Shown here in pieces: positions 14,616 through 43,647 of a DNA stretch of 44,150 nt. Source of the stretch: a virus. Lineage: Duplodnaviria > Heunggongvirae > Uroviricota > Caudoviricetes. The notes below the pieces were generated by a model. It made no database searches. It was given only the letters and a program-made list of their open reading frames with translations, and had not been told where the DNA came from. Where the stretch lies: the IMG/VR virus record IMGVR_UViG_3300045988_004957; one strand, written 5' to 3'. Position numbers and translations under genes: made by a program. The stretch's first letter is position 1, and each line of letters begins with the position of its first letter.

Positions 14616-14722
14616 TCTTTAATCCTTTGGTTAAGAGGTTACGGGTTAAGGTTAATGCGCCAGACGGGAACCACCCGCTTTTCGTGTGCGACACTAGGCG
14701 CAAAATTATTCTATCACATTAC

Positions 14723-14751
14723 TTGCACACCCCAATATAATAGTGTACTAT
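14723..14751 (+). promoter_or_regulatory. sigma70-like promoter with embedded dyad (site 1)
   Basis: TTGCAC-17 bp-TACTAT; dyad AATAGT-GT-ACTATT at 14739..14752; 40 bp upstream of ATG 14793. Confidence 0.55.
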
Positions 14752-14792
14752 TCACTTACACCAACGATGTTATCCCAAACAGGAGCTACACC

Positions 14793-17191: not shown

Positions 17192-17195
17192 GAAA

Positions 17196-17222
17196 AAGGC
17201 CCCGAAAGGGGCCTTAGTTTTA
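17196..17222. terminator. bidirectional rho-independent terminator
   Basis: AAGGCCCC-GAAA-GGGGCCTT followed by AGTTTTA; near-identical to the terminator at 4644. Confidence 0.7.
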
Positions 17223-18392
17223 TGCGTAGGTGATACGTTGAATTACGATAGACGACTGGTACTGATTGCCGGTAGCCTGGCCTTCAATGGACTGAGTGAT
17301 TGACTCAGGCCCACCAATCTCAGGTGTAACCGCCGTAAGCTCTGCTCGTTTCAAACTGAAAGACATAGCCCCGTTTACCCCTGCCAGAATAGAGTTAATC
17401 TCTACCTGCTGCTCGTTGATAAACTTCTGAATCATCGCCATGTCGTACAGCTTGCCAGAGATAGAGAATGTGTTAGCTGCGCGTCCACGTTCGACGAACG
17501 CCACGCTACTGTTACCGAGTTCGAACTGCGCGGAAGCTCCGTTGTCGTTGGTGATGGTGAGAGTATCGCAACGCAACGGCGTGGAGCCATCGAACACCGA
17601 CACATCTACCGACGAGAACGGCTCATCGGTGAACGTAACCTGAGAGAAATCAGAGCCAGACGGCGGCGCGGTAAGAATCTCCTGACTCAGGCCGATGAAC
17701 GGGAAGCTGCCGGTGACCATGGCGTTAACCGCCTGCTCTACGGTAAAGCCAGAGATTTCCACACCTTTGGTCAGCATGTACGCGTCCGGGTTACCACACT
17801 GGCCCTTGAACCACGTCAGGATGGAGAACGTCTTACACGCGTTACCGGTTTCCAGCTTGTCGCCAGTTTTTGCGTCAGTGGTTACTGTCTCTGCTGTCAG
17901 CGTGTGCTGAATACCTGCGCCCGTAACTACCAGAGCGGAAACCGCGGTCACGATAAACGGTTTTGCGTTGTCGCCGGTTAAGTCGGTGAACGCAATAAGG
18001 TCGCCAACTTCTACACCGTCAGTAATGAAGCTACCGGCAGCGCGGGTGAATGTTTTACCTGCTGGGGCGACCATAATTTCGGCGCCAGTAATCTCTACCC
18101 CAGCTTGCCACGTAGAAGTCATCGCTCCCGCAAGGAAATCATCCTGGCTACGAGAGCTAAGTTCGATGGCGTACTCCCCGCTAACCTGTTTGTTACCGGT
18201 TCGGATGGATGTAGTTTCACGGCTGCCGTCTAGTTCGTTGGAAGTCAGCGCATCGCGGGTTACGGCAGGAACACCGCCAGTGTTACGCAACGGCGACCAG
18301 ACAGGGTTAGCCGGTGTTACGCCCGGGGTAGTTTCCGCCACATAGAATTGCGCGGTATTCGCGCCCTTAAAAGGAGTTGTAGCCATATTCAC
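17220..18392 (-). CDS. putative major tail protein
   Basis: 390 aa Thr/Gly/Ala-rich ORF at the position of a major tail subunit. Confidence 0.5.
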   Translation of the reverse strand: MNMATTPFKGANTAQFYVAETTPGVTPANPVWSPLRNTGGVPAVTRDALTSNELDGSRETTSIRTGNKQVSGEYAIELSSRSQDDFLAGAMTSTWQAGVEITGAEIMVAPAGKTFTRAAGSFITDGVEVGDLIAFTDLTGDNAKPFIVTAVSALVVTGAGIQHTLTAETVTTDAKTGDKLETGNACKTFSILTWFKGQCGNPDAYMLTKGVEISGFTVEQAVNAMVTGSFPFIGLSQEILTAPPSGSDFSQVTFTDEPFSSVDVSVFDGSTPLRCDTLTITNDNGASAQFELGNSSVAFVERGRAANTFSISGKLYDMAMIQKFINEQQVEINSILAGVNGAMSFSLKRAELTAVTPEIGGPESITQSIEGQATGNQYQSSIVIQRITYA

Positions 18393-21586: not shown

Positions 21587-21607
21587 AAGAGGGACCGAAG
21601 TCCCTCT
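21587..21607 (-). terminator. rho-independent terminator after major capsid gene
   Basis: Minus strand AGAGGGAC-TTCG-GTCCCTCT followed by TTTTCATTT, 17 nt after capsid stop. Confidence 0.6.
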
Positions 21608-21623
21608 CGATTATATCTTAACC

Positions 21624-22673: not shown

Positions 22674-23387
22674 TATTTTTTCCTCAGGGCTTTAAGTTGC
22701 CGTTCAAATTCGGCAGGGTTCGATTCGTACAGAGCGATACGCTCCGCTTCACTCATGTCTTTAAACGCTGGTGCGGCCCCGCCGCCTTTGCTACCGGAAG
22801 CCCCGCCGCCGGAAGCTGCATTTGCTTTAATCAAATGTGAAAACGCTTTGTGTTCTCGCAAGTATTTGCGGAACTGTTCCGGGTCAGTCGTGATTACGTT
22901 GCCGTCTGCGCCAACAAACTTAGTAACCACGTCATCGCCTTCGAACTCAGTCTTAACGAACGGCGCAAGAATGTCCACTGCTTCTGGGGTAATAAAGTCA
23001 CCCGCGAAAGAGCCTAGCACCGCTTTACGTTCGCTGCCGAGGATACGCTCTGCCATTCTGGAGATGCGACCGTCTTTCTCGGCTAACACCGGGTCATACT
23101 GGCTACGAATCGTCTTTTCGAACTCATCCATCTTACCAGCGGCTTTTAACGCCTCCTGGTGCGCGCGCTGCCGTTCTTCTTCGGCCTCTTTTGCTTTGCG
23201 AGCGGCTTCTTTCTTCTCCGCGAGCAATGCTTCCTGATTAGCCTTAAGCCCGGCAACTTCTTTCTCAATCAGCGCCTGAACTTCTTCAGCGGTGAACATT
23301 TTCGGCGCGTCACCGCCACCAGCTTTATCTTCTGCCCCAGCTTCTTCCTGGAACGGATAACGTAAAAAACGATTCATAGTCAGTATG
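22673..23387 (-). CDS. scaffolding protein
   Basis: Charged Ala/Glu/Lys-rich coiled-coil directly upstream of capsid gene; start taken at ATG 23387 rather than upstream TTG 23431. Confidence 0.55.
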
Positions 23388-23459
23388 TCCCCTGGACGTT
23401 GGAATCCGGGCCTCCCGGATTTACATGTCAAGAATAAATTATTCCAACATACAAGGCAA

Positions 23460-23723
23460 CTATTCCAGAATATTCCTCACGTAATCCTGCAACATGAACA
23501 CTTTCAGCCGCAGCTGCCGTACGCATTCAGCGTTCTGAACGTCGATAGCTAAATCCTCGTCAGCGTCGCTACTTGGCGCTGCCAGTTTGCACGGAGGCTG
23601 CATCATCGTCGTATCCGGTAATGGAATTAGCGTTTGCGACGGCGTGGGACTTGAGCTGCACGCGCTCAGGGTCAAAAGTGCACACGCTGCGACCCGGCGT
23701 TTTAATGTATTTAACGACTTCAC
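23460..23723 (-). CDS. o-spanin (Rz1-like lipoprotein)
   Basis: Signal peptide with lipobox LSAC then Pro-rich mature part; begins inside i-spanin gene in another frame and extends past it. Confidence 0.7.
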   Translation of the reverse strand: MKSLNTLKRRVAACALLTLSACSSSPTPSQTLIPLPDTTMMQPPCKLAAPSSDADEDLAIDVQNAECVRQLRLKVFMLQDYVRNILE

Positions 23724-23955
23724 GGGTAATCACCTCTGATTTCGTCTTGCCTTCGTTGTCGGCGGCGGCGGCCTTTGATTCGTCCTGCTGCTGCCGTTGT
23801 GTTTTCTTCGCTAACTCAGCCTGCGCTTTCTGCTGTTGCTGCGAAACGAGATTCGCCCGGCCTTCGCTCCAGCCGCTGCGATACTGGTAAATGCCGTGGG
23901 CGTAAGCCAGGATGATGAAACATGCTCCCGCTACGACAGTTGCTTTAAGATTCAT
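23569..23955 (-). CDS. i-spanin (Rz-like)
   Basis: N-terminal TM helix followed by charged Gln/Ala/Lys-rich periplasmic domain; overlaps o-spanin. Confidence 0.7.
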   Translation of the reverse strand: MNLKATVVAGACFIILAYAHGIYQYRSGWSEGRANLVSQQQQKAQAELAKKTQRQQQDESKAAAADNEGKTKSEVITREVVKYIKTPGRSVCTFDPERVQLKSHAVANANSITGYDDDAASVQTGSAK

Positions 23956-23979
23956 GTTTCCCCTTTCTCGATAAGTAAA

Positions 23980-23999
23980 GCCCTGCCTTAAAGCAGGGC
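23980..23999 (-). terminator. GC hairpin with T-rich tail on minus strand
   Basis: GCCCTGC-6 nt-GCAGGGC, followed on minus strand by TTTACTTAT. Confidence 0.45.
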
Positions 24000-24065
24000 G
24001 CTAGTCCTTATCATTTAAACATAGAAACGGCGTAATCTAAGTAAACCTGTTACTTTTTACACAAG

Positions 24066-24208
24066 CAATAGAGTATGGCCCTTCCGAACGCGTCAGCGTA
24101 ACTACACTCAGGACTTACGTCCCGCTCCGTTACCTGCCCGCGCCGCGGTCGCTTGTTCATACTTCACAAGCTCAGGTGGAGCTTATCATATTTTTAGTGA
24201 AAAGTCAA
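24066..24208. repeat. dispersed ~145-bp non-coding repeat, copy A
   Basis: Aligns with 36397..36539 over about 143 bp incl. identical 43-bp block 24143..24185. Confidence 0.9.
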
Positions 24209-24274
24209 CTATTCGAATAGTTTATTCCAACATTTACAATTCGGTGGAATAACTGGAATACGTAAATAAATAGT

Positions 24275-24303
24275 TTGCACACCCCAATATAATAGGGTAC
24301 TAT
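24275..24303 (+). promoter_or_regulatory. sigma70-like promoter with embedded dyad (site 2)
   Basis: TTGCAC-17 bp-TACTAT, near-identical to site 1; dyad at 24291..24304. Confidence 0.55.
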
Positions 24304-24330
24304 TCAGTTAACTTAAACAGGAGGTGAAAA

Positions 24331-24534
24331 ATGTATGCAATTTGCGAAGTAGTTCAAGAGTTCGATGAAGAGTTCGACGGTGACTTGTGCCGTGTTAAAA
24401 AGGTTCTGCAGGTTTTCCCTGACGCAATGTCTGCTTACAGGGCATTAGATATATTTGAACCTGGAAGATACGGGGATTATGACACTGTTCTGAGGGTTGT
24501 CCATGAGCAGGATTTAAACACAAGATTCCGTTGA
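24331..24534 (+). CDS. hypothetical protein (moron-like, 67 aa)
   Basis: Lone plus-strand ORF with SD AGGAGGTGA, own promoter and terminator inside minus-strand structural module. Confidence 0.55.
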   Translation: MYAICEVVQEFDEEFDGDLCRVKKVLQVFPDAMSAYRALDIFEPGRYGDYDTVLRVVHEQDLNTRFR

Positions 24535-24539
24535 AAACT

Positions 24540-24562
24540 AAGGCCCCTTAATGGGGCCTTTT
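24540..24562. terminator. bidirectional rho-independent terminator
   Basis: AGGCCCC-TTAAT-GGGGCCT followed by TTTTAT; between convergent genes. Confidence 0.65.
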
Positions 24563-24563
24563 A

Positions 24564-25025
24564 TCATTCTGGTTTAGCGACCTTCGCCGCTTTACTGACG
24601 GCCTCTACGCCACCGGCATCGGTAACTTTAACGAAGTATTCACCAACTGCATTAACCGTCAGAGACAAGGCCTCTTCCGGGGCGTTTACCACTTCCTTAC
24701 CGTCTTTGTACCAGGTCAGAGCATACGGTGCTTTACCCGCCTTAACTTCGACAGTGATAGTTGCGCTGCCATCTGTAAGTTCAGTGTCTTTCGGTTGCAC
24801 AGAGAAGTACACGTCACCAGCGTCCGCCAGATACGGAATCTCGTAAAGCATGCCAGCAGCGGGTAACGCAATACCGGTTTTATCTGCAAACGGCATATCG
24901 TCCACTGGCGCACCCAGTACACTTTCGTCTTCAATAAATACCACGTTCTCGCCAGAGCCAGACACGCGGGCGTACTGGACTACGCGACGAGACGGTACGT
25001 CAGTTACTTTGAAAAAGCCCATCAT
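24564..25025 (-). CDS. Ig-like domain virion protein
   Basis: APYALTWYKDGKEV ... VGEYFVKV Ig-like pattern; between head morphogenesis gene and spanins. Confidence 0.5.
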   Translation of the reverse strand: MMGFFKVTDVPSRRVVQYARVSGSGENVVFIEDESVLGAPVDDMPFADKTGIALPAAGMLYEIPYLADAGDVYFSVQPKDTELTDGSATITVEVKAGKAPYALTWYKDGKEVVNAPEEALSLTVNAVGEYFVKVTDAGGVEAVSKAAKVAKPE

Positions 25026-26101
25026 TATTCCCCTTTCAGATAATCAGCAACACGTTTATCGAGTTCCGCCATCTGCTTAAGCGTGAGCGGATTCCCGAAA
25101 CCATCTACAGATATTACGCGAAACTCTTCCGGCGATATACCGCTGTTACGGAAAATCTTACCTCGCACCGGGCCGAGCGCCTGGTCCTGAAACCACGCCG
25201 GTTGTTGTTTAAGGAACTCGTAGTAAGTGGTGTCTGCGCTTACCTGAGTGCCACCTTCCGCGCCTTTAGCCGCGCGTTTTGCGCCTTTATCGAGGAAGTC
25301 GAACTCGGAACTGATTACCGGAGCCGTGCACGACCGGCAGTTCGGATGGGCTGGGGGCATCGGCCCCTTACCAATTTCCCACGTCATCCCGTCTCTGACC
25401 CTGCAAATCGTACTGGTGCGGCTGTCAAGCGTTGACACCCACTCGTACTTCTCGATGATGTCGTCGTTCTGGCGGTACGTCTCGTTACGGGCCTCGTTGG
25501 ATACGTGGGACAGCGCGGTGCGGATTACCGTAGTCGCGTTACGTTCTGAGATGTCGGCTAGTCCACCAGCGCCAACAACATTCTTAACAATCTGCCGTGT
25601 GGTTTGACCTTGCACAAAGCCCATCTTAACTCCAGTTACAAGACGTGCTACTTCCGTTTCGCCCCATCCAGACATCAGCTTGGTGAAATCAACGGGCTTG
25701 TCGCTCAATGATAATGGTTGAAACTCGGCAGCGGACCATACCTGCTCAGCGGTAGGCGTAACAAATTCCGCGTCTACGTTGGCGGTCAGTGTCTTTACGT
25801 TCCACTCAGCCTCGTACGCCGCCAGTTCCTTAAGGTCGTCTGTTAGCTTTGTTTGCCAGTCACCCGTAATACCGGTTAGTGCTTCTTCCAGGTCGCGTAA
25901 CAGTTTATTCAGTCGCGCAGTGCTGCGACCGTCGTCACCGAATAACAGCACCTGCCGTTTGATTTCATCCCTTATCTCCTGAATGAACGGCGTGAGGTCT
26001 TTCACCTCACCGGATGCGGTGCGTTGCAGCCATATCTGATGGCTGATTAGGGATGTAAGTAAGCTCATAGATAAACCCTGTGGCGCTAAAGTTAATAGCA
26101 T
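25025..26101 (-). CDS. head morphogenesis protein (minor head)
   Basis: 358 aa ORF immediately downstream of portal, as for Mu F / SPP1 gp7-type proteins. Confidence 0.55.
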   Translation of the reverse strand: MLLTLAPQGLSMSLLTSLISHQIWLQRTASGEVKDLTPFIQEIRDEIKRQVLLFGDDGRSTARLNKLLRDLEEALTGITGDWQTKLTDDLKELAAYEAEWNVKTLTANVDAEFVTPTAEQVWSAAEFQPLSLSDKPVDFTKLMSGWGETEVARLVTGVKMGFVQGQTTRQIVKNVVGAGGLADISERNATTVIRTALSHVSNEARNETYRQNDDIIEKYEWVSTLDSRTSTICRVRDGMTWEIGKGPMPPAHPNCRSCTAPVISSEFDFLDKGAKRAAKGAEGGTQVSADTTYYEFLKQQPAWFQDQALGPVRGKIFRNSGISPEEFRVISVDGFGNPLTLKQMAELDKRVADYLKGE

Positions 26102-26110
26102 ACTATAAGA

Positions 26111-26126
26111 AAGCCCCTTTCGGGGC
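26111..26126 (-). terminator. hairpin / attenuator after portal gene
   Basis: AGCCCC-GAAA-GGGGCT on minus strand followed by TTCTTAT. Confidence 0.4.
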
Positions 26127-26137
26127 TATAGGTGAAC

Positions 26138-27619
26138 TTACTGCTGAGTGGTGTCCTGTTGCTGCGCCGACTGCGGAATCTCTCCCGCTACCTGAGCAAC
26201 AGAACCCAACGGCAGAGGTGCGTCTTCAATAGCGTTCTGAATGTCCTCATCTGTCCAGTCAGTCACACCTGCCTTGCGCAACGCAGCATAGTAAGCGGTG
26301 GCGGGTAGCAGGCCAGCGTTAATATCCGCCATCCACTGAGCGCGGTCCTGAGCTGTCATAGGTTGCAGGAAGAATTCCATATTCAGCTTGAACTCAATCT
26401 CAGTATCTTCACTAAGCCCAAGCATACCCGCAACCCAGCGCAACGCATCGGTATACGCCATGCTTACATTACGTGCTATTGTTGCCATGACTGACGTGTC
26501 GGCGCCGCGTTGCAGGCGGGCCGATTCCGCGGTGATTTGCTGCGTCGGGGTGATAAGCTGCGCGCCAATCTGGATGGCCTGATTCTCTTTATCCAGCATA
26601 TTCTGTTTGGCGAGGTTAGTTTCCGCCGCCTGAACCAGAAACGCATTTCCGCCGGAGCCGATGTTGTGGCCTGAACGCGACCCCATGCGTATGCCGTGTG
26701 GGTTGGCTTCTTTCCACTGCTCCATGCTCATGTTCTCGCCGGGGGCAATGAACAGTGTCGGTTGACCTACTATAAAGCTGGCCTCTTCCACATCGGCCGA
26801 ATTTCTGAAGTGTCCTATATTTAGCTCAGCTAACGGCAGTAAAGGCGCATCGTCTATAGTGGCGTCGTTGTTGCTTGCGCCAATGAACGTGAACGGGATT
26901 TTACCGCGCAACTGTTCGCCGAGTTCCGGGAAGATTTCGATTACTTCATCCTGTGCGCCACCTTCGGCATCGAAGCGGTAGATGCGCTGGCGGTAGCGAC
27001 CGTCAATCAGGTCAAGGACGCGGTATTGCTCGCCGAATTTTGTTTCAAACTCAGCGCCTGGTTCCGAGTATTCCCATGCCTCACGCAATACAACCATCGT
27101 CACGCGGTTCACTGAACCGATGCGGGTGAGTCTCCAGTTGATAATGTTCTCCGCGGTATAGAATGCGATTACCGGGTTTAATAATCCCGCGTTCTGCTCT
27201 GCCGCCGTTGCTGCGGCTGTTTCCGGGGCGTCCACCAGCAACCCGCCACGGCCTATCGAGTTAATCTCCATCAGCGTATCCTGCGCGTGCTGCCACAGCC
27301 CGACACCTGAACCGTCAGCGTTGTGCAACAGGTACTCAAGTTCAGGCGGGATAATCTGCTCAGGGTCTTTGCGCATCACTGACCCCGTCATCCCCGCCAG
27401 CGTGCGTTTGGTGAAATTGTAGCAGATAGCGCCGTTCTCGTATTCTTCCTGTCGCTGTGCTGCGTAGGTCTGGTCAGGCTCGTTCTTCCCGACGTTGCGC
27501 AGATAGCGGATAAGGTCGCCTTCAAGAGCGTGGCGTACCTTCTGCCATTTATCGAAGTGATGCAGCCATTCCCGGTGTTTTGTCTTAACACCCTGATTCT
27601 GACCGTTCATAGTTAACAT
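26138..27619 (-). CDS. portal protein
   Basis: 493 aa acidic ORF between terminase large subunit and head morphogenesis gene. Confidence 0.65.
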   Translation of the reverse strand: MLTMNGQNQGVKTKHREWLHHFDKWQKVRHALEGDLIRYLRNVGKNEPDQTYAAQRQEEYENGAICYNFTKRTLAGMTGSVMRKDPEQIIPPELEYLLHNADGSGVGLWQHAQDTLMEINSIGRGGLLVDAPETAAATAAEQNAGLLNPVIAFYTAENIINWRLTRIGSVNRVTMVVLREAWEYSEPGAEFETKFGEQYRVLDLIDGRYRQRIYRFDAEGGAQDEVIEIFPELGEQLRGKIPFTFIGASNNDATIDDAPLLPLAELNIGHFRNSADVEEASFIVGQPTLFIAPGENMSMEQWKEANPHGIRMGSRSGHNIGSGGNAFLVQAAETNLAKQNMLDKENQAIQIGAQLITPTQQITAESARLQRGADTSVMATIARNVSMAYTDALRWVAGMLGLSEDTEIEFKLNMEFFLQPMTAQDRAQWMADINAGLLPATAYYAALRKAGVTDWTDEDIQNAIEDAPLPLGSVAQVAGEIPQSAQQQDTTQQ

Positions 27620-27631
27620 TGAATAATCCTC

Positions 27632-28903
27632 TTAAAGTGCGAAAGTCACCGGGACGTTAATAACTGGTTTGCGAATCGGCATTTCATACGCGATAGGGTA
27701 TGTGGTTCCATCATTCTGGTGGTCCACACCGCCTGATTTATCCGGTTCGCCGTTCTTGTCGTAAGCCTGTTGCTCCAGGCATCGTGCGGTAACAGGGCAA
27801 GCCTGTTCATTAATCATGACCATACCAGATTCAAGCGCCTTATTCATCGCCGCTACGCGGTCTTTAACCGGTGGGTTTGTCGATTTAGCGCGCACTTCGA
27901 AGCCGGCCTGCTGTAACTGGGCAATATCAGATGTGCTGGCGTTGTTACTTTTACGGTTTTTACCGCTTGCGTCGGGGTACATAACGATATAGTGGCCCTT
28001 ACTTTTCCAGCGCTCTGTTACGGCTCTCACCACATCGGGCGTATCGAACATATCCACCAACTCGGCGACTGCATGCCAGACTTTGCCACGTTGCACGTAA
28101 ACTGTACTAGCCATGTGGCCTACGTTAAAGTCCTGCCCGATATACAGAGTCTCGCCTGGTTTTATCGTTTCGCGGCTGCTGTTTTTCCTGCGGTCATAGG
28201 CGTAATAGACAGTCCCCGCCGTCAGGTTGACGAACTCGCCGTTGATGTAGGCGTCAATCAACTGACCTGGGTATGTGTCGCGTAACGACTGCACATAATC
28301 TTCTGGCAGGAACGGGTTAGACAGGGTGGACGCCTGAATCATCTCGTAGCCTGGATTCTTTTTGACTACCCAGCGGTCATGTACGAAACGGAATCCTTCC
28401 GGGGTAGTGAACACGGAAACGGTATTAGCAGGTTTCGGTGTAATAGGTTTATATGTCCGCGGCAACTGGCGGTTACGGGCGATGACTTTGTTCCACGCGT
28501 GCTCGGCGTGCTCCATGTTAAGGGTGTCCAACTCGTCGATTTTCGCACGAAACGATTCGTAGCCAACGATTCGTGCTGGATTATCAAGTGTACGCAGAAC
28601 AAAATCCCCAAATTGTCCGGAAGACGTATAGATTATGTTGTCAGACTTGTTGTATTTGTACCGGATACCCCAGTCGGTGAGCTTTTCTTCCATACGCGGT
28701 GCAAGGATGAGGCGCACCAGGTCATAAGTCGGCTCATACATGGCGATGATAGAATCGCTACCACCTTCCATGCTGTCGAGTAGTGCAGAGTTGCACATAA
28801 CTTCGGATTTACCCGTACCGAAGCCAGCTACGAATGCCGGAAACTTGCAATGCATACCGAGAAACGCGCCTTGCGGCTCCGTTGCCGTGATATTAACGTT
28901 CAC
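27632..28903 (-). CDS. terminase large subunit
   Basis: Walker A GFGTGKS near N-terminus, C-terminal nuclease-like half; 423 aa. Confidence 0.85.
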   Translation of the reverse strand: MNVNITATEPQGAFLGMHCKFPAFVAGFGTGKSEVMCNSALLDSMEGGSDSIIAMYEPTYDLVRLILAPRMEEKLTDWGIRYKYNKSDNIIYTSSGQFGDFVLRTLDNPARIVGYESFRAKIDELDTLNMEHAEHAWNKVIARNRQLPRTYKPITPKPANTVSVFTTPEGFRFVHDRWVVKKNPGYEMIQASTLSNPFLPEDYVQSLRDTYPGQLIDAYINGEFVNLTAGTVYYAYDRRKNSSRETIKPGETLYIGQDFNVGHMASTVYVQRGKVWHAVAELVDMFDTPDVVRAVTERWKSKGHYIVMYPDASGKNRKSNNASTSDIAQLQQAGFEVRAKSTNPPVKDRVAAMNKALESGMVMINEQACPVTARCLEQQAYDKNGEPDKSGGVDHQNDGTTYPIAYEMPIRKPVINVPVTFAL

Positions 28904-29402
28904 CGGACACCACCTTAATTGTTACTTCGCTGATTGGCTCGTCGCGTACTTCTTCGGCGACAACTGTTTTATTCAGGCCCAGTTTCGCGGCAGCAAACGT
29001 AGCAGAGATGCCCGCGGCCCCCGTTTCAGTGAAGTATGCCTCTTCCAGCGCCTGTGCTGTCTCCCAGGCTTCTGCAAATGCGGGAATCTCACGCAGCCAA
29101 AGCTTAATAATCGGGATAGTGACTCCGATGTGTAAGGCGAAGCGGGCCAGTGACGGTGGTTTATCCTGAATCAGCGGGCGTTCGTCACCCTTAGACGTAG
29201 GCACAAGCTCCCACGACGTGCGGTCGAAGAACTCGATTAGTGCATCGCAATAGCCCGGGTCCCACAACGCGGCGGAATTACGGGATGATTGATAAAGGCT
29301 CTGTTTACCGCGCGGTCGTTTACGGCGACGGTTTGCGCTAACAGCTTCTTTATGCGCAGCTTGCACCACCTCTGGTGATGGTTGCTTAAGTGTAAGTTTC
29401 AT
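28893..29402 (-). CDS. putative terminase small subunit
   Basis: ORF overlapping terminase large start; start taken at ATG 29402 with SD AGGGGG; basic N-terminal region. Confidence 0.45.
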   Translation of the reverse strand: MKLTLKQPSPEVVQAAHKEAVSANRRRKRPRGKQSLYQSSRNSAALWDPGYCDALIEFFDRTSWELVPTSKGDERPLIQDKPPSLARFALHIGVTIPIIKLWLREIPAFAEAWETAQALEEAYFTETGAAGISATFAAAKLGLNKTVVAEEVRDEPISEVTIKVVSGER

Positions 29403-29500
29403 ATAACCCCCTGACATATGCGTCTGACCATCAGAGCGCACCAGACGCGCCCTACGCGTCTAAAGGGATTATATAAGGGGATTGGGCGGGATGTACAGAA

Positions 29501-29520
29501 AAGCCCTCCGTAGAGGGCTT
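29501..29520 (-). terminator. hairpin terminator / attenuator
   Basis: AAGCCCTC-TACG-GAGGGCTT on minus strand followed by TTCTGT. Confidence 0.5.
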
Positions 29521-29578
29521 GTATCAGTTATATAGGCCGTGGCGTGGCGCTCGTTTACCGTCGCCGCCGTAATGGTCG

Positions 29579-29851
29579 TTAGCTACCGCTATAACCCAGG
29601 CATTCGGAAAGACTAAAAGTTGCATTAAATTCCTCAAGGTCTATTTTACGAATACATGGTGAAAGGCAATCAGCGAAAACCAACTCACCAGAATCAATAA
29701 CGACGAATCGCCAGCCTTTGAATATGTTCTCGGAAATACCCTCCGCAACTTCGCGTACATTAGGCATGTGTTCTGGGAAATCGTGGAAGTTTCTGGACAA
29801 AAATTCAAGGGCCTCACACCGGTTTATGTGGTAGTTATCATATCCAATCAT
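29579..29851 (-). CDS. hypothetical protein
   Basis: 90 aa ORF, last of a tightly coupled minus-strand small-gene cluster. Confidence 0.45.
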   Translation of the reverse strand: MIGYDNYHINRCEALEFLSRNFHDFPEHMPNVREVAEGISENIFKGWRFVVIDSGELVFADCLSPCIRKIDLEEFNATFSLSECLGYSGS

Positions 29852-30108
29852 TCCCCGCTCTCCTCTTTAGCGATGCGTTGCTCTGTTTTAGTGATACCGC
29901 GGCGCGTGAATAACACCGGGCTTGTCTTAACGTGCGTCATAAGGCGGTTATTATAAATTACATGGCGCTCGCATTTCACGTCTTTGCTGTACTTCGCAAT
30001 CGTCATTTCGTTGAGGCCTGTTTGTCGGCACGTCTCCGCCATCGTGCCAAATTCTTTAATAAGGTTAGGAATGCTGGTAATCATCCTAAGAAATTCCTCG
30101 TCGTCCAC
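29848..30108 (-). CDS. hypothetical protein
   Basis: 86 aa ORF, ATGA coupling to downstream gene. Confidence 0.45.
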   Translation of the reverse strand: MDDEEFLRMITSIPNLIKEFGTMAETCRQTGLNEMTIAKYSKDVKCERHVIYNNRLMTHVKTSPVLFTRRGITKTEQRIAKEESGE

Positions 30109-30202
30109 ATCGCATTAGTATCTGCCCCACAGAAACCCAACCAATAGTCCGATGAAGTAACTAAGACCGACCAGGCCAATAACAACCTCAAGACTCATAC
30201 TC

Positions 30203-30403
30203 TTACCCCACTATCTCATCACCTAGCCACGCCGTTTCTCGTATATCGTCGACCACACAAGCGGCGTGCTCGCGGCTAATTGCAAAAATGTAGAAGCTGA
30301 ACTTCTTCCCGTCGGCGTCGATGTGGTTAACCGAGTATGGTTTCCACAGGACGCCATCAATAACTACCGGTTCAGGCGCTTTCATCTTCTGGTCCGACAA
30401 CAT
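30203..30403 (-). CDS. hypothetical protein
   Basis: 66 aa ORF in co-directional cluster. Confidence 0.4.
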   Translation of the reverse strand: MLSDQKMKAPEPVVIDGVLWKPYSVNHIDADGKKFSFYIFAISREHAACVVDDIRETAWLGDEIVG

Positions 30404-30662
30404 TGTCGTACAGCGGGATTATCACATCAGCCCCATCCTTTGAAGCTGCGGTTGCCGTGTTGTAATAAGCCAGCGAAGAACTGTCTTCACCGACGAACAA
30501 CCCCGCGTACACGTTCGGTTCTTGCGTCTTAATAGCCAGTAACTCCTTAAACGCCTCCAGTTGAAACTCACCGTTAATTGACAGTTGCCCGCCTAACGTC
30601 TGTTTCTCTGACTCAAGGACCAGAATACGACGCTCAAGTGACGCGATTGTGATTTTAGGCAT
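30372..30662 (-). CDS. hypothetical protein
   Basis: 96 aa ORF in co-directional cluster. Confidence 0.45.
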   Translation of the reverse strand: MPKITIASLERRILVLESEKQTLGGQLSINGEFQLEAFKELLAIKTQEPNVYAGLFVGEDSSSLAYYNTATAASKDGADVIIPLYDNVVGPEDESA

Positions 30663-30886
30663 TATTCGGCTCCCTCATAAAAATCGCCATTTCGGTAATC
30701 CCCATCGAAATCGTCAGAAATAGCGCGCCCCTTGTTCATGTTGAAGCGGCTAATCAGCTCACGGCGGCGTTCCATAAGATTATCCACCTGCCGTAAGTGG
30801 TGTTCGATGTGGGTGTCAATCCACGCTATTTCAGATTCACCGGTCGCGGATTCGACGCATGCTTTTTCATATTCGTTATTAGTCAT
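30662..30886 (-). CDS. hypothetical protein
   Basis: 74 aa ORF, ATGA coupling with upstream ORF. Confidence 0.45.
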   Translation of the reverse strand: MTNNEYEKACVESATGESEIAWIDTHIEHHLRQVDNLMERRRELISRFNMNKGRAISDDFDGDYRNGDFYEGAE

Positions 30887-31041
30887 ACTTTACGCTCTCC
30901 CCACATGCGATTGAGATACTTGTTCTTGTCCGGCCCGGGGAAACTGTTACGTTTCATCAGTTCCTCGCGTGTCGGGAACGGGGTGTGGCTGACTTTACGG
31001 CCTACTCGTATTGACGGGTTTATTTGAACTTGTTCACTCAT
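30883..31041 (-). CDS. hypothetical protein (52 aa)
   Basis: ATG 31041 with SD GGGAGG, ATGA coupling on both sides; below ORF-track cutoff. Confidence 0.4.
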   Translation of the reverse strand: MSEQVQINPSIRVGRKVSHTPFPTREELMKRNSFPGPDKNKYLNRMWGERKV

Positions 31042-31235
31042 TCTACAACCTCCCATTTAACGCCGTGGAAGCCATCACCTTCATCGTTACCAAAGTCTAT
31101 GAAAATACAGCAGTCGTCGTCGGAGTCTATATAACCGAAACCAGTAGCTGTCGGGTTGTACACATCGTACACTTTACCCTCTGTCACATAGTCAAGGGCG
31201 GCTAACCAGAGAATTTTAGCGGCTTTAACTTTCAT
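31038..31235 (-). CDS. hypothetical protein
   Basis: 65 aa acidic ORF in coupled cluster. Confidence 0.45.
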   Translation of the reverse strand: MKVKAAKILWLAALDYVTEGKVYDVYNPTATGFGYIDSDDDCCIFIDFGNDEGDGFHGVKWEVVE

Positions 31236-31381
31236 TTCTTCTCTCCTGCATAAGCTGCTTTAAGTGTCTGCATCGCAGCGAACCAGAACGCGTCCGCTGG
31301 AATGCTGTTGCTCAGGTTACTAACTGCGATGCGCGCCATCAGTTGCGCGTCTTTGAATGCTTCGATATCTGTGATTTTCAT
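31232..31381 (-). CDS. hypothetical protein (49 aa)
   Basis: ATG 31381 overlapping upstream stop (TAATG) and ATGA coupling downstream. Confidence 0.4.
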   Translation of the reverse strand: MKITDIEAFKDAQLMARIAVSNLSNSIPADAFWFAAMQTLKAAYAGEKK

Positions 31382-31581
31382 TAGTTATTCTCCAGTATTT
31401 CTAACGCTTTCACGAGGTAACGTTTACGTAAAACATCAGTCTGCGCGCTATTAGCCCTGCGTATGTAGCCCGCAGCAGCCCTCATCTGTAGTTTTTCCAC
31501 CGAACCATTCCCTATTATAGCTGATGCGATACATTTAACTTCGAGTTCTTCGGTTATTTCTATCGTCGATACGTTGCCCAT
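31381..31581 (-). CDS. hypothetical protein
   Basis: 66 aa, first gene after promoter 31616..31644; SD GGAG. Confidence 0.45.
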   Translation of the reverse strand: MGNVSTIEITEELEVKCIASAIIGNGSVEKLQMRAAAGYIRRANSAQTDVLRKRYLVKALEILENN

Positions 31582-31615
31582 TTCTCTCTACTCCGTTCTC
31601 GTTGTCGATGAAGTA

Positions 31616-31644
31616 AATATAATAGGGTCGAGGATAATAGTCAA
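31616..31644 (-). promoter_or_regulatory. sigma70-like promoter for small-gene cluster
   Basis: Minus strand TTGACT-17 bp-TATATT immediately downstream of the lysis-cassette terminator. Confidence 0.5.
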
Positions 31645-31674
31645 CTAGTCATCACAGAAAATAGATAAAAAAAA

Positions 31675-31702
31675 TCCCGGCTGGGTCAGGGCCGGGATAA
31701 AA
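31675..31702 (-). terminator. rho-independent terminator after lysis cassette
   Basis: Stem TCCCGGC / GCCGGGA with 9-nt loop flanked on minus strand by T4 and T8 runs. Confidence 0.7.
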
Positions 31703-31762
31703 CTGGAGAGCAGAGGGATGGAGCAGGAGGTGATTTAAGTATCGTCGGATTAGTCTTATGTG

Positions 31763-32248
31763 TCAACCTTTCACCGCGCGCCCGATAGCCTCTGCCTCTT
31801 GCCACGGTTTACCGTCGAACAGTGCCAGACGTCCGGCGGTACGGCGACGCAGGCCTAGTAACGGTTTGCCGTTCTGGTTGATGAACAGCGCCAGCTTAGC
31901 CCGCAGCGTTGCAATATCACCAGAACGCAGTGCCTTACCCGTGCCGGTAGTAGCTGCAATCACACCAGCACCTGCGTTGTATACCAGGTCGCACACTGCA
32001 TCGAACTGTGCCTGTGTCAATGAATGGTGTGCTGCTGCGTCAACCGCAGCTACGGCCTTAGCCATATCGCGATTCAGTAGCAGTAGACCTTGTCCCGGCG
32101 TGATTGTTTGCCCCGCCTTAACGTCCGGCCCGTAGTGACCGTACCCGATAGTCAGGTACTTCTCATTTGGCGTAGCACGATACGCAGTTCCGCGGAATCC
32201 CTCGAACGCGGCGGTGAATTTGATGCCATTGTTGCTAATGTTTCTCAT
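31763..32248 (-). CDS. endolysin (GH24 T4-lysozyme-like)
   Basis: N-terminal catalytic region FEGFRGTAYRATPNEKYLTIGYG with Glu-Asp-Thr spacing; no signal-anchor. Confidence 0.8.
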   Translation of the reverse strand: MRNISNNGIKFTAAFEGFRGTAYRATPNEKYLTIGYGHYGPDVKAGQTITPGQGLLLLNRDMAKAVAAVDAAAHHSLTQAQFDAVCDLVYNAGAGVIAATTGTGKALRSGDIATLRAKLALFINQNGKPLLGLRRRTAGRLALFDGKPWQEAEAIGRAVKG

Positions 32249-32778
32249 AAAGCACCTTCCCGTAATTTATGGTTCGCGAAAACCCCGTGTATCTTCTCTC
32301 TAGCTTCTTCGGCAACTAGCGCGGCTAGTTCTAGGTCCGCAAAGTATCCGTAAAAATACTTAATCTTATGTATTTTTAATTGAACGTACCATCCTCCTTG
32401 TTGCTTCTGCCACATAACGTTCTTAATACCGGATTTGCTGTCCTTTCTTGGCCCTTTGTTGCATCCGTTTTCGGATTTGTTGGCTTCACGTAAATTACAG
32501 AATCTATTATCACGACCATCGCCGTTTATGTGGTCTATTAGGGAGTTGGGCCATTCCCCTGTCATGTATAGCCAAGCGAGACGATGCGCCAAGTACCGCT
32601 TCCCACCGAAGGCTATGGAGCGATAGCCTGCACAATGGTTGGCGCCAGCCTCACTTCCCGCCCGAGCATTGTGCACACGTGTAGCTTTCCATGTAAAAAC
32701 TCCGGTATCGGGGTCGTAGTGTAAAACCTCGCGCAGCTTATCTGCGGTAAGTCCATTATCTGAAATGTTTCGAGACAC
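32245..32778 (-). CDS. HNH endonuclease
   Basis: HNH core LIDHINGDGRDNRFCNLREA..N; start taken at GTG 32778 with SD GGAGGA; ATGA coupling to endolysin. Confidence 0.75.
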   Translation of the reverse strand: MSRNISDNGLTADKLREVLHYDPDTGVFTWKATRVHNARAGSEAGANHCAGYRSIAFGGKRYLAHRLAWLYMTGEWPNSLIDHINGDGRDNRFCNLREANKSENGCNKGPRKDSKSGIKNVMWQKQQGGWYVQLKIHKIKYFYGYFADLELAALVAEEAREKIHGVFANHKLREGAL

Positions 32779-33028
32779 GCTTATGTCCTCCGTACGACAG
32801 CCACGCCTGACGAATCTGGCGCAGCGCAACTAAAGTGATTAATGTTTCCGGCAGCGTCGGTGACATGCTGCCTTGTAACAGGTGGATACAACCTGCGGCG
32901 CAGACAATAGCAGTGAGGATATACAGCACACGACCAAACAGACCGTCGTCTACGCTGGGGTGGTATACGTTAAACAGCGATGTGCCCCCGATTGCGAGCA
33001 TACCGCAAAACCAGAATAACTCATTCAT
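32756..33028 (-). CDS. two-TM membrane protein (holin-associated)
   Basis: ATG 33028 overlapping holin stop; two hydrophobic helices. Confidence 0.45.
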   Translation of the reverse strand: MNELFWFCGMLAIGGTSLFNVYHPSVDDGLFGRVLYILTAIVCAAGCIHLLQGSMSPTLPETLITLVALRQIRQAWLSYGGHKRVSKHFR

Positions 33029-33329
33029 TACCACCTCCGCGGCGTGCGATATATTCTCCGGCGACAATGCCAGAGAGACGGGAATAAATTGGCATCCAGA
33101 GAATAGCAATGATGAATCCAAGGCCCGCTATTTCGCGTTCACCTGCGATACCGAACCATTGAGCGGCGAGAGGCGCACCGAATACGGCGCACGCAAAGCC
33201 AGTGGCGAGAAAACAGAGAGCATCGACAGGGCCGGTAATAGTGGCTTTGTGTTGCCGTAAGCCTATTACCCCACCAGCTAATGCGGCAGCGAGAAGCCAC
33301 CCCGTCACTGTTTCAGTAAATTTATCCAA
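33021..33329 (-). CDS. putative holin
   Basis: 102 aa with TM helices and charged C-terminus, first gene of lysis cassette; start codon is TTG. Confidence 0.5.
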   Translation of the reverse strand: MDKFTETVTGWLLAAALAGGVIGLRQHKATITGPVDALCFLATGFACAVFGAPLAAQWFGIAGEREIAGLGFIIAILWMPIYSRLSGIVAGEYIARRGGGNE

Positions 33330-33375
33330 GATGAAGCCACCCCGTCACTGTTTCAGTAAATTTATCCAAGATGAA
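33293..33375. repeat. 40-bp tandem direct repeat (2 copies) across the holin start
   Basis: 33293..33332 identical to 33333..33372, next 3 nt also repeat. Confidence 0.9.
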
Positions 33376-35088: not shown

Positions 35089-35118
35089 CTCTGCCTCTCC
35101 TCTCGTTTGTGTAAATGA

Positions 35119-35147
35119 ATAGTAGACTATTCTATCCCAGTGTGCAA
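35119..35147 (-). promoter_or_regulatory. sigma70-like promoter with embedded dyad (site 3)
   Basis: Minus strand TTGCAC-17 bp-TACTAT; perfect dyad AATAGT-AG-ACTATT at 35118..35131. Confidence 0.5.
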
Positions 35148-35283
35148 GTAAATTTTATTGGTGTCTGTTATTGTTGCATCTCCTGCAATAGTCGCTTCGA
35201 TTGTTGCGTTTCGTGCAAGTGTCGCCTTTTGACGACACTAAGCTAAAGTTGTACGCTGCTGTGTAGCAGCGTAAGTCACTCAG

Positions 35284-36167: not shown

Positions 36168-36201
36168 TTCTAAATTCCTTATGTCTCGTTCCGATAAGTG
36201 A

Positions 36202-36230
36202 ATAGTATCCTATTATGTTGGGGTGTGCAA
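36202..36230 (-). promoter_or_regulatory. sigma70-like promoter with embedded dyad (site 4)
   Basis: Minus strand TTGCACACCCCAACATAATAGGATACTAT; dyad at 36201..36214. Confidence 0.55.
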
Positions 36231-36396
36231 GATAATAGTTACGTTGCCGTTGTGATTCTTTTGTTTCTTTAAAGAGTACGCAACGCAGCGGGTGGGCTAA
36301 AGCCCACCCCAGCGGAGTGAAGTACTCTCTACCTTGCTTACGGCAACTATAGAAACTTTTAATTATTAGTGACTTGGGTTATTTAGACGGGATTTA

Positions 36397-36539
36397 CAAT
36401 AGATTATGGCCCTTCCGAATGCAGGCAGCGACACTACACTCAGTGCTGACGCACCGCTCCGTTTCCTGCCGCACCGCGGTCGCTTGTTCATACTTCACAA
36501 GCTCAGGTGGAGCTTAGCACATTTCTTAGTAAAAGTCAA
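36397..36539. repeat. dispersed ~145-bp non-coding repeat, copy B
   Basis: Paralogue of 24066..24208; identical 43-bp block at 36474..36516. Confidence 0.9.
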
Positions 36540-36646
36540 TACCATTAGCATCTTTTGTATATTAGTAACTTTGTGTGGTGTTTTGGTTGCTTTTACATTC
36601 ACGCTATCCTATACTCGTTTTCACCAAACAAACAGGAGATATAAAA

Positions 36647-36829
36647 ATGCAGCATTACATGACACAGAATGAAGTGGCTGAACGTATCGGGGTGACACGT
36701 CAAACAATTAATAACTGGTTGCGCAGCGGTAAATTCCCTGATTGCTGTATTAAGGTTATGGGTCGCCGTTTACCAGGAACATTTGACCGTAATAAAGTTG
36801 AAGCATGGATTAAGGAGAACGTGAAATGA
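36647..36829 (+). CDS. AlpA/excisionase-like HTH DNA-binding protein
   Basis: 60 aa from ATG 36647 (SD CAGGAG); GKFP ... W pattern of AlpA-type HTH proteins. Confidence 0.55.
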   Translation: MQHYMTQNEVAERIGVTRQTINNWLRSGKFPDCCIKVMGRRLPGTFDRNKVEAWIKENVK

Positions 36830-39800: not shown

Positions 39801-39820
39801 AAGGGGCTTTAAGCCCCTTC
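39801..39820. terminator. bidirectional hairpin terminator
   Basis: AAGGGGCTT-T-AAGCCCCTT between convergent genes; overlaps 3' end of XRE gene. Confidence 0.6.
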
Positions 39821-43627: not shown

Positions 43628-43647
43628 TATCTGAATCAATTTTAACT

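What the first reader, a model, noticed from the sequence alone, without database searches (positions are those of the whole stretch)
24066..24208. Pair of paralogous ~145-bp non-coding elements with compensatory stem changes (candidate small-RNA loci)
Copy A (24066..24208) and copy B (36397..36539) lie 12.3 kb apart in the same orientation and align over about 143 bp, with most positions identical by eye and a 43-bp block fully identical (CCGCGGTCGCTTGTTCATACTTCACAAGCTCAGGTGGAGCTTA). Conservation is not protein-like: the ATG frame open in copy B (ORF-track 36406..36672) stops after 8 codons in copy A, and the copies differ by compensating 1-nt indels. One 4-bp stem carries two compensatory pair changes (A: GGAC-ttac-GTCC at 24111..24122; B: GTGC-tgac-GCAC at 36443..36454), and the identical block can fold as GCTTGT-9 nt-ACAAGC. 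On the minus strand each copy ends in TTGACT-17 bp-TAAGCT (plus coords 24180..24208 and 36511..36539) and is followed 65-90 bp later by a GC hairpin (23980..23999 with T-rich tail; 36290..36309 inside a nested stem). That is the layout promoter, structured region, terminator expected of a roughly 200-240 nt minus-strand transcript. Both copies sit in the two largest non-coding gaps of the window.
Basis: partly seen in the sequence, partly recalled or inferred. Interest (0 to 1): 0.8.

Follow-up and report, generated by a model that had tools for sequence, protein, structure and literature searches.

The report
Conserved structured leader RNA of phage late operons
The two repeats are real copies of an undescribed, about 108-nucleotide folded RNA that a group of E. 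coli and Salmonella phages transcribe at the very start of their late (lysis and virion) operons, where it most likely controls how RNA polymerase reads on into those genes.

Summary
Copy A (24066-24208) and copy B (36397-36539) are direct repeats, 87.6% identical, with flanks at about 50% identity. The window is a Kagunavirus genome (Guernseyvirinae).

Each repeat holds a minus-strand sigma-70 promoter (TTGACT, 17 bp, TGnTAAGCT). It is followed from about +1 by a 108-nt RNA (24173->24066 and 36504->36397). The RNA has a 5' hairpin P1, a long irregular hairpin P2 and a conserved purine-rich tail.

Across 44 distinct sequences, 95% of predicted pairs form, against about 35% when partners are slid. 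Fifteen of 28 pairs change on both sides. G-U pairs fix the minus strand. These sequences include eight copy-B variants and a diverged form from classic Jerseyviruses.

About 450 GenBank phage records carry a form at the copy-A position. There is no match in Rfam, in 5,426 E. coli genomes or in the HK022 put region.

Both copies are 5' leaders of late operons rather than isolated genes. The "terminator" is a covarying hairpin that lacks a U-tract in most relatives.

My best reading is a cis-acting leader that modifies transcription elongation, like put RNA (about 0.4). A released small RNA, or a protein or RNase target, remains plausible. It is a new RNA family whose function is untested.

The parts
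24180..24208 (-). Promoter PA: -35 TTGACT (24208..24203), 17-bp spacer, TG at 24188..24187, -10 TAAGCT (24185..24180)
   Evidence: Read directly from the sequence. The hexamers, the spacing and the TG are kept in all K-type and copy-B variants, and appear as TAGACT-17-TGnTACGCT in the J-type. Not tested experimentally, and not called by the simple scan because TAAGCT matches only 3 of 6 positions.
24066..24173 (-). Copy A leader RNA core, 108 nt from the predicted +1. P1 is GCUUGU-9-ACAAGC. P2 runs from nt 26 to 90 and consists of CCG/CGG, GGCGCG/CGCGUU, CAG/CUG, GUAAC/GUUAC and the apical CGGGAC-GUAA-GUCCUG. The tail is AAGGGCCAUACUCUAUUG.
   Evidence: Covariance model score 131.4 bits.
24000..24065 (-). 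A/U-rich spacer of the copy-A leader. It contains the conserved box GAUUACGCCGU and a -10-like TATGTT.
   Evidence: Alignments. Mean pairwise identity is 0.968 among 38 K-type sequences. Its function is unknown.
23970..23999 (-). GC hairpin GCCCUGC-UUUAAG-GCAGGGC followed by UUUACUUAUC. It is terminator-like in the K-type. It lies 14 nt upstream of the ribosome-binding site and ATG (23955) of the Rz spanin gene.
   Evidence: Scored as terminator-like. The stem is kept by compensatory changes: GCCCCGC/GCGGGGC, GCCCUGC/GCAGGGC, and GCCCGGC/GCCGGGC or GCCCGAC/GUCGGGC in the J-type. The J-type has no U-tract.
36511..36539 (-). Promoter PB1: -35 TTGACT (36539..36534), 17-bp spacer, TGc, -10 TAAGCT (36516..36511)
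   Evidence: Read directly from the sequence and conserved in all copy-B variants. A TTGACA-17-TAAG(G/T)T promoter-like site sits at the same place in phages that lack copy B.
36397..36504 (-). Copy B leader RNA core, 108 nt, with the same architecture as copy A
   Evidence: Covariance model score 121.7 bits. Fold. Seven further sequence variants occur at this position in other phages.
36273..36328 (-). Extended hairpin downstream of copy B. The inner stem is GGGUGGGC-UUUA-GCCCACCC (36309..36290) and the outer stem is AGAGUAC/GUACUCU. UUUAAAG follows.
   Evidence: Read directly from the sequence and recovered in the fold. Not scored as a terminator. Each copy-B variant has a different GC hairpin at this place.
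36195..36230 (-). Second promoter PB2 (TTGCAC-17-TACTAT) carrying the palindromic operator AATAG...CTATT. It lies between the copy-B hairpin and the first gene of the operon (ATG 36167).
   Evidence: It belongs to repeat families D5 and I2/I3. The same consensus was reported as a 'phage promoter' in fBC-Eco01 (PMC9825357).

Best explanation
SHOWN. Each copy is a sigma-70 promoter followed directly by a 108-nt structured RNA read from the minus strand.
- The RNA consists of a 5' hairpin P1 starting at nt 3, a roughly 65-nt irregular hairpin P2, and a conserved purine-rich tail (CGGAAGGGCC...YUAUUG).
- It is the first part of the transcript of the phage's late operons.
- After it come a variable A/U-rich spacer of 65-90 nt, a covarying GC hairpin, and then the genes. 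Copy A leads into the spanins, scaffold, capsid and tail-tube genes. Copy B leads into small genes, then the holins, endolysin, terminase and portal genes.
- The family occupies the copy-A position in essentially all Kagunavirus and Jerseyvirus genomes examined.

INFERRED. The RNA works in cis on the polymerase that has just made it. It folds as it leaves the exit channel, and it stays with or alters the elongation complex, either alone (as HK022 put RNA does) or with a factor. The complex then reads through the hairpin behind the leader and through the terminator-like hairpins inside and between the late modules (26127..26112 after the portal gene, 21608..21587 after the capsid gene, and the bidirectional terminators at 24540-24560 and 17196-17215). 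The two copies exist because the late region is split into two minus-strand operons. The parts kept in every form, and therefore the likely business end, are the basal P2 stem and the tail.
For: RNA and strand:
- 95.0% of cells are paired, against 27-42% when the 3' partners are slid.
- 15 of 28 pairs change on both sides.
- 132 cells show a double change, against 33 +/- 5 in shuffles (0 of 500 shuffles reach this).
- The covariation score is 0.335 against 0.121. All these figures are; smaller sequence sets give the same picture.
- 126 of 1178 cells are G-U pairs, which would be A-C mismatches on the other strand.

Leader context:
- The gene maps of relatives are, and the ORF map is.
- The copy-A hairpin ends 14 nt before the spanin ribosome-binding site.
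- The whole copy-A leader is 94.5-97.3% identical among 38 K-type sequences, against 86.5% for the first 90 nt of the gene that follows.

Action at a distance rather than a local switch:
- The hairpin behind the leader differs completely between variants (C-rich 5' arm in copy A, G-rich in the window's copy B) and sits at different distances.
- The RNA tail meanwhile is invariant, so there is no conserved alternative pairing between them.

Other points:
- Terminator-like hairpins lie inside the late operons.
- The layout parallels putL: it lies immediately after the promoter, has two stem-loops, and exists as two paralogous copies on two operons (PMC9378689).
- No Pfam-recognisable Q or N antiterminator was found among 30 small ORFs.
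Against: - No transcript data exist. The +1 position, the 3' ends and any read-through are all predicted.
- In the J-type, the first hairpin after the leader has no U-tract, so nothing needs to be overridden at that spot.
- Copy B is followed by a second promoter, PB2. Read-through from PB1 is therefore not obviously needed there.
- Most relatives carry an unrelated leader in the copy-B slot.
- A constitutive, factor-free antiterminator would give no temporal control of late genes.
- The thermodynamic signal is modest, with z between -0.9 and -3.9 for the cores.
- SLMP1 lacks the distal half of P2, and the J-type has at best a vestigial P1. Much of the structure is therefore dispensable in some phages.
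- There is no sequence or structure similarity to put.
Confidence: 0.4

Rival explanations
1. A small RNA that acts in trans. The strong promoter makes a roughly 110-215-nt RNA. It is released by termination at the hairpin in the K-type, or by RNase cleavage in the A/U-rich spacer. It then binds a host or phage protein, or a host mRNA through a short seed. A precedent is StxS, the short P_R' transcript of Stx phages, which acts as a regulatory sRNA.
For: - The K-type hairpin plus UUUACUUAUC is scored as terminator-like.
- At copy B, the unit of promoter, RNA and hairpin is followed by a separate promoter, as expected for an independent gene.
- The copy-B slot holds alternative, unrelated conserved non-coding sequence in other phages, like an exchangeable RNA cassette.
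- P1 begins 2 nt from the predicted 5' end, as 5' stabilising hairpins do.
- A terminated-leader sRNA has precedent (PMC7547250, listed).
Against: - The J-type hairpin has no U-tract, and the window's copy-B hairpin is not scored as a terminator.
- No complementarity longer than 12 nt exists elsewhere in the phage.
- There is no blastn-detectable match on either strand in 5,426 E. coli genomes.
- The 3' U-tails are poor for Hfq-type sRNAs.
- The position exactly at the head of both late operons, in their orientation, would be a coincidence.
Confidence: 0.3
2. A leader that serves as the docking or processing site for a protein. Three versions are possible: a nut-like site for an unrecognised phage antiterminator or repressor, an operator for translational or stability control, or an RNase III/RNase E processing signal like the paralogous RNase III sites of T7. 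In the last case the cleavage would set mRNA ends and stability.
For: - P2 sums to about 23 bp with an asymmetric internal loop, which is the size class of RNase III substrates.
- The primary sequence is invariant in the unpaired tail and partly so in the internal loop (GGAG / AGYGUA), as expected for protein contacts.
- Many small ORFs of unknown function could encode the partner.
Against: - No boxA or boxB-like motif is kept. The apical loop varies (GUAA, GUCA, AUUA, CUCG, CACA).
- No candidate protein was identified.
- RNase III sites rarely conserve 100 nt of sequence at more than 95%.
Confidence: 0.2
3. A DNA-level element: a duplicated promoter region with regulator-binding sites, or a transcription-primed replication origin. 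In this reading the RNA has no function of its own.
For: - The most identical block (43 bp) spans the -10 hexamer to +37.
- A perfect palindrome with the phage operator half-sites abuts the -35 of copy A.
- The element is G-rich on the transcript strand and is followed by A/T-rich DNA.
Against: - Compensatory double changes occur in 15 of 28 pairs, and G-U pairs make sense on one strand only.
- The helices are conserved while their sequences are replaced, for example the apical stem and the J-type mid helix.
Confidence: 0.05
4. A short protein-coding gene on the minus strand, as annotated in several GenBank records (for example the 36-aa Bas73_0007, MNKRPRRGQV...).
For: - An ATG in the P1 loop opens a 36-codon frame in copy A.
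- The two compensating indels restore the same frame at both ends in the window's copy B.
Against: - Variants B3 and B7 have no start codon there.
- Variant B4 stops after 19 codons, and the ST20 copy B ends in another frame (sequences).
- There is no usable Shine-Dalgarno sequence.
- Substitutions follow the helices, not the codons.
Confidence: 0.02

Closest known systems
HK022 put RNAs (putL, putR)
   Same: Both are cis-encoded structured RNAs with two paralogous copies per phage, one on each of two operons. putL starts at +3, directly after a sigma-70 promoter. Both have two stem-loops with bulges kept by pairing, and both lie upstream of terminators (PMC9378689).
   Different: There is no detectable sequence or structure homology (best E = 4.1 in the HK022 immunity region). 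The element is 108 nt rather than about 70 nt. It sits in virulent siphophages on late rather than early operons. Binding to RNA polymerase and antitermination are untested here.
Lambdoid late leader (P_R' - 6S RNA - tR'; StxS in Stx phages)
   Same: The layout is the same: a strong promoter, a leader of about 200 nt, a hairpin or terminator, and then lysis genes followed by virion genes. The short product can itself act as an sRNA (PMC7547250).
   Different: Lambdoid control depends on a Q protein, a DNA site at the promoter and a sigma-dependent pause, not on a conserved RNA fold. No Q-like protein was found here. Here it is the RNA fold that is conserved.
Lambda/P22 nut sites (boxA + boxB with N protein)
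   Same: Both are paralogous RNA sites in the leaders of two operons that make polymerase terminator-resistant.
   Different: No boxA (GCUCUUUA) is present. The nearest string is (A/G)YUCUAUUG. No hairpin has a conserved GNRA-like loop, and no N-like protein was recognised.
T7 RNase III processing sites
   Same: Both are several paralogous irregular hairpins of about 60 nt with an internal loop, found in phage polycistronic transcripts.
   Different: T7 sites lie between genes throughout the transcript. These elements lie only at the extreme 5' end of two operons and carry a conserved single-stranded tail. Cleavage is untested.

Membership tests
Any Rfam 15 family | Match to a curated covariance model at its gathering score | tested here: not met
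   There were 0 matches in the whole window at gathering thresholds. At E <= 10 around both copies only chance-level hits appeared (snoRNAs, a terminator-like sRNA stem, PepN thermometer at 14 bits against a threshold of 83).
HK022 put RNA | Sequence and structure similarity to putL/putR | tested here: not met
   Model R1 was run with filters off on HK022 23000-33000, the region expected to hold PL-putL and PR-putR. The nun, cI and cro genes are not annotated in the stretches fetched. The best hit scored 5.9 bits, E = 4.1.
HK022 put RNA | Cis-acting, located between a promoter and terminators, two stem-loops, paralogous copies on two operons | tested here: met
   Layout, compared with the description in PMC9378689. 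This is resemblance in layout only.
HK022 put RNA | Binds the RNA polymerase beta' zinc-binding domain and suppresses termination without protein factors | not testable with these tools
   This needs in vitro transcription and rpoC zinc-binding-domain mutants.
Lambda-type nut site | boxA (CGCUCUUA / UGCUCUUUAACAA) followed by a boxB hairpin with a conserved loop, plus an N-family protein | tested here: not met
   No boxA string is present in any variant. The loops of P1 and of the apical stem vary between variants. No N-like Pfam hit was found. The motifs were checked by eye, not with a model.
Q-dependent late leader (qut/6S) | A Q-family antiterminator gene and a promoter-proximal sigma-dependent pause element | tested here: inconclusive
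   No Q-family Pfam hit was found in 30 small ORFs, but Q families are diverse. A -10-like AAGTAT at +10..+15 is present in the K-type but not kept in B3/B7 or the J-type.
Stand-alone sRNA with intrinsic terminator | GC hairpin directly followed by a U-tract at the 3' end, conserved across the family | tested here: not met
   The hairpin covaries and is conserved. The U-tract is present only in K-type copy A. It is absent at the window's copy B and in the J-type, which is found in 269 records.
RfaH ops element | GGCGGTAGnnTG on the non-template strand with invariant T6/A7 | tested here: not met
   The nearest string is GGCAGG followed by T, A, G or C depending on the variant. This was checked by eye against the consensus recalled from the literature.
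Protein-coding gene | Open frame and start codon kept in relatives | tested here: not met
   The start codon is lost in B3/B7, B4 has a premature stop, and the frame shifts in ST20 copy B. On the plus strand the frame stops after 8 codons in copy A.

The most novel reading that the evidence does not exclude
This would be a second, evolutionarily independent class of RNA that binds RNA polymerase on its own and makes it terminator-resistant. HK022 put has remained essentially the only phage example of such an RNA. In this reading, a large group of virulent siphophages uses the RNA to drive late-gene expression, and the basal P2 stem plus the GGAAGGGCC tail form the minimal polymerase-binding module.
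Probability: 0.2. Interest if true: 0.85.

Novelty: new variant of a known kind. Interest (0 to 1): 0.6.

Why it matters
Guernseyvirinae (Kagunavirus and Jerseyvirus) are among the commonest E. coli and Salmonella phages isolated for therapy and biocontrol. They are also used as synthetic-biology chassis. How they time late-gene expression is nevertheless unknown.

A conserved, covarying RNA at the head of both late operons is a concrete handle on that question, and it is easy to mutate. If it acts on RNA polymerase, it would add a second natural example to a class of regulators (put) that has shaped ideas on pausing and termination. It would also be a compact, portable read-through element for engineering.

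There is a practical point as well. Many GenBank records annotate spurious 'hypothetical proteins' over this element.

Tried and rejected
- **Rfam.** The whole window at gathering thresholds and both loci at E <= 10 gave nothing.
- **A third copy.** A diverged third copy, for example heading the tail operon, was not found.
- **Relatives outside Guernseyvirinae.** Two loose-pattern scans of IMG/VR returned mostly chance matches. The covariance model rejected all of them except the Jerseyvirus loci L168 and L165.
- **Host or prophage origin.** There was no blastn match in 5,426 E. coli genomes. The single 'plasmid' hit, CP088689.1 (44 kb, two places), looks like a phage genome.
- **Antisense target in the phage.** The longest complementarity is 12 nt, which is the chance level.
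- **Coding on either strand.** Rejected (see rival explanations).
- **Riboswitch-like terminator/antiterminator switch.** Rejected because the hairpin sequence and its distance change between variants while the RNA tail does not, so no conserved alternative pairing exists.
- **Pseudoknot between the P1 loop (GUAUG) and the tail (CAUAC).** The pairing is not kept in the variants (CAUAG, CAAAG, CACUAG).
- **A small 3' hairpin P3 (AGGG/CUCU).** It can form in most variants but in shifting registers, so I left it out of the model.
- **Motifs checked by eye.** ops, boxA, K-turn, hammerhead core and CsrA GGA-in-loop motifs showed no consistent match.
- **Literature.** I found no description of this element in papers on Kagunavirus or Jerseyvirus. 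The one RNA-seq study (phage K1B4, PMC12645636) analysed genes only.
- **Unused scans.** I did not use the metagenome and genome-collection scans, because any pattern loose enough to reach new relatives would return thousands of chance hits.

Full report
**1. What the window is**

The window is a complete or nearly complete Kagunavirus genome (subfamily Guernseyvirinae). Copy B is 100% identical to Escherichia phage vB_EcoM_SHAK7858. The copy-A region matches about 180 Escherichia and Salmonella phage records at 95-99%.

The gene maps of relatives and the ORF map show alternating transcription modules separated by bidirectional terminators. Three late modules lie on the minus strand:
- 36167->24564: small genes, holins, endolysin, terminase, portal and head morphogenesis genes.
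- 23955->17220: Rz/Rz1 spanins, scaffold, major capsid, connector and tail-tube genes.
- 14615->4668: tail genes.

Copy B lies just upstream of the first module and copy A just upstream of the second. Both are in the orientation of those operons.

**2.

The two 143-bp stretches are 87.6% identical, and their flanks are at about 50%. The core occurs twice against an expectation of zero. A covariance model finds no third copy.

**3. Anatomy on the minus strand**

Each copy begins with TTGACT, a 17-bp spacer and TGnTAAGCT. This is a near-consensus -35 with an extended -10. The 43-bp block that is identical between the copies runs from this -10 hexamer to about +37.

Taking +1 seven bases after the -10 hexamer, the RNA starts at 24173 (copy A) and 36504 (copy B). 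Its conserved part is 108 nt long and ends at CUAUUG (24066 and 36397).

Single-sequence folds of five variants agree on the following architecture:
- P1: GCUUGU, a 9-nt loop, ACAAGC, beginning at nt 3.
- P2: a long irregular hairpin from nt 26 to 90. It is built from CCG/CGG, GGCGCG/CGCGUU, CAG/CUG, GUAAC/GUUAC and an apical 6-bp stem with a tetraloop. It has an asymmetric internal loop, GGAG on the 5' side and AGUGUA on the 3' side.
- An unpaired tail, AAGGGCCAUACUCUAUUG.

Folding energies are only modestly better than those of shuffles (z from -0.9 to -3.9). The case therefore rests on comparative evidence.

**4. Comparative evidence**

IMG/VR scans and GenBank records gave 38 distinct K-type sequences, including eight sequence types of copy B. 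These change the helices while keeping the pairs:
- The apical stem reads GGGAC/GUCCU, GGUGC/GCACU, GGGGC/GCCCU, GUGCC/GGCAC or CACGU/ACGUG.
- One pair of P2b is C-G, U-A or A-U.
- One pair of P2d is U-A, A-U or G-C.

On the MAFFT alignment, 94.9% of cells pair, against about 35% when the partners are slid. Double changes occur in 28 cells, against 7 +/- 2 in shuffles. On the model-fitted alignment of all hits the figures are 95.6% and 58 against 14 +/- 3.

A weaker covariance-model hit (36-39 bits) led to a diverged form at the same genomic position in SETP3-, SETP7- and SE2-type Jerseyviruses (the J-type). It is present in 269 records. In the J-type:
- The basal stem and tail are the same.
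- The middle helix is replaced by UCGCG/CGCGA.
- The apical stem is GGGCGY/RCGCCC.
- P1 is reduced to a hairpin that overlaps the predicted start.

With the J-type included (44 distinct sequences), 95.0% of cells pair and 15 of 28 pairs show changes on both sides. There are 132 such cells against 33 +/- 5 in shuffles, and the covariation score is 0.335 against 0.121. This alignment is fitted to the model, which favours the structure. The MAFFT-based count and the slid controls argue that the signal is real.

About 11% of cells are G-U pairs, which would be mismatches on the plus strand. The functional strand is therefore the minus strand.

Salmonella phage SLMP1 keeps only a vestigial P1, the basal P2 stem closed by a tetraloop, and the tail. 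This points to that part as the universal core.

**5. What lies behind the RNA**

A 65-90-nt A/U-rich spacer follows. It is partly conserved, with a box GAUUnCGCCGU and a -10-like TATRNT. A GC hairpin follows the spacer.

The hairpin is kept by compensatory changes but differs entirely between variants. Only in K-type copy A is it followed by a passable U-tract (UUUACUUAUC), and only there is it scored as terminator-like. At the window's copy B and in the J-type it is not.

In copy A, the ribosome-binding site and ATG of the spanin gene follow within 24 nt. Whatever starts at PA must therefore pass the hairpin to express the operon.

In copy B, a second promoter (PB2) lies between the hairpin and the first gene. 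PB2 belongs to the phage's operator-bearing promoter family.

Among 38 K-type sequences the entire leader, from promoter to ATG, is 94.5-97.3% identical. The first 90 nt of the gene behind it are 86.5% identical.

**6. What it is not**

- It matches no Rfam family.
- It is not related to HK022 put by the model.
- It is not found in E. coli genomes.
- It is not coding: start codons and frames are not kept.
- It is not an antisense partner of another phage transcript.
- It is not a local terminator/antiterminator switch, because the invariant tail faces hairpins of unrelated sequence at different distances.

**7. Mechanism**

The shown facts are a strong promoter, an immediately following conserved fold, a position at the head of both late operons, and terminator-like hairpins behind and within those operons. 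There is also no recognisable protein antiterminator.

These facts fit best a cis-acting leader that changes the elongation properties of the polymerase. The closest analogy is put RNA. I give this about 0.4.

The main rival, at about 0.3, is that the leader is released as a small RNA that acts in trans, as the Stx-phage P_R' leader does. This release would occur by termination in the K-type or by cleavage in the spacer. The copy-B locus looks like a separate unit, and the exchangeable content of that slot in other phages speaks for this reading.

A protein-binding or RNase-processing role gets about 0.2. DNA-level and coding readings are unlikely.

**8. Novelty**

I found no description of the element in the searchable literature, including genome papers and the one transcriptome study of a Kagunavirus. 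Several GenBank records annotate hypothetical proteins over it.

It is a new RNA family. Its layout is that of known phage leader RNAs, but it shares no homology with them.

Noticed in passing
window 2319-2348, 14723-14758, 24275-24310, 40045-40074, 40089-40118, 42913-42942 (+); 35103-35151, 36195-36230 (-): A family of at least eight sigma-70-like promoters carries an inverted repeat (G)AATAGT-N3-(A)CTATT between the -35 and -10 hexamers. It is probably an operator for one of the phage HTH proteins (Cro/CI-type ORF at 39809-40024, minus strand). It matches the 'phage promoter' consensus reported for fBC-Eco01 (PMC9825357), which that paper attributed to a phage RNA polymerase. I saw no such gene in the maps of relatives.
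   Followed up: partly
window 24207-24222: A perfect 16-bp palindrome, AACTATTCGAATAGTT, is built from the same half-sites and overlaps the first two bases of the -35 hexamer of the copy-A promoter. The J-type phages have GAATACTTTATTC a few bases further upstream (L168 1051-1063). This may mean that the late promoter is also regulated at initiation.
   Followed up: no
L164 3530-3900 (Bas73) and homologues L292, L293: Phages without copy B carry, in the same slot, a conserved promoter-like TTGACA-17-TAAG(G/T)T and an unrelated leader-like region of about 270 nt, found in 397 records. It folds well (z = -4.1). It shows blocks of identity interrupted by indels that are not multiples of three. 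It is annotated inconsistently as proteins of 48-106 aa on the opposite strand. It is probably a second non-coding leader family. It contains CUUCCUUCC, which is complementary to the GGAAGGG tail of the copy-A RNA.
   Followed up: partly
L043 2220-2328 (IMGVR_UViG_3300045988_039442): One phage has a copy-B-type core (B5-like) sitting in the copy-A position with copy-A flanks. This indicates recombination or gene conversion between the two paralogous leaders.
   Followed up: no
window 4642-4673, 17194-17225, 24536-24563, 43644-43671: Four related bidirectional terminators (AAAAGGCCCC-loop-GGGGCCTT with T-runs on both strands) mark every junction between convergent modules.
   Followed up: partly
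window 33293-33372: An exact 40-bp tandem duplication (GAAGCCACCCCGTCACTGTTTCAGTAAATTTATCCAAGAT, two copies) lies inside the small-gene part of the copy-B operon.
   Followed up: no
window 32245-32829 (-): An HNH endonuclease ORF (PF13392, E = 3e-14) is inserted next to the endolysin gene. It is likely a homing endonuclease and is absent from some relatives.
   Followed up: no
window 14616-14712 (-): The tail operon has its own candidate promoter with an extended -10 (TGaTAGAAT). Its leader of about 90 nt contains a long-range stem (UGCGCC...GGCGCA). The leader is unrelated to the element according to the covariance model.
   Followed up: no
GenBank records, e.g. PQ850603.1 5304-5414 (Bas73_0007): Short 'hypothetical protein' genes are annotated over the leader RNA in many deposited genomes. 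The frame is not conserved across the family, so these calls are probably spurious.
   Followed up: yes
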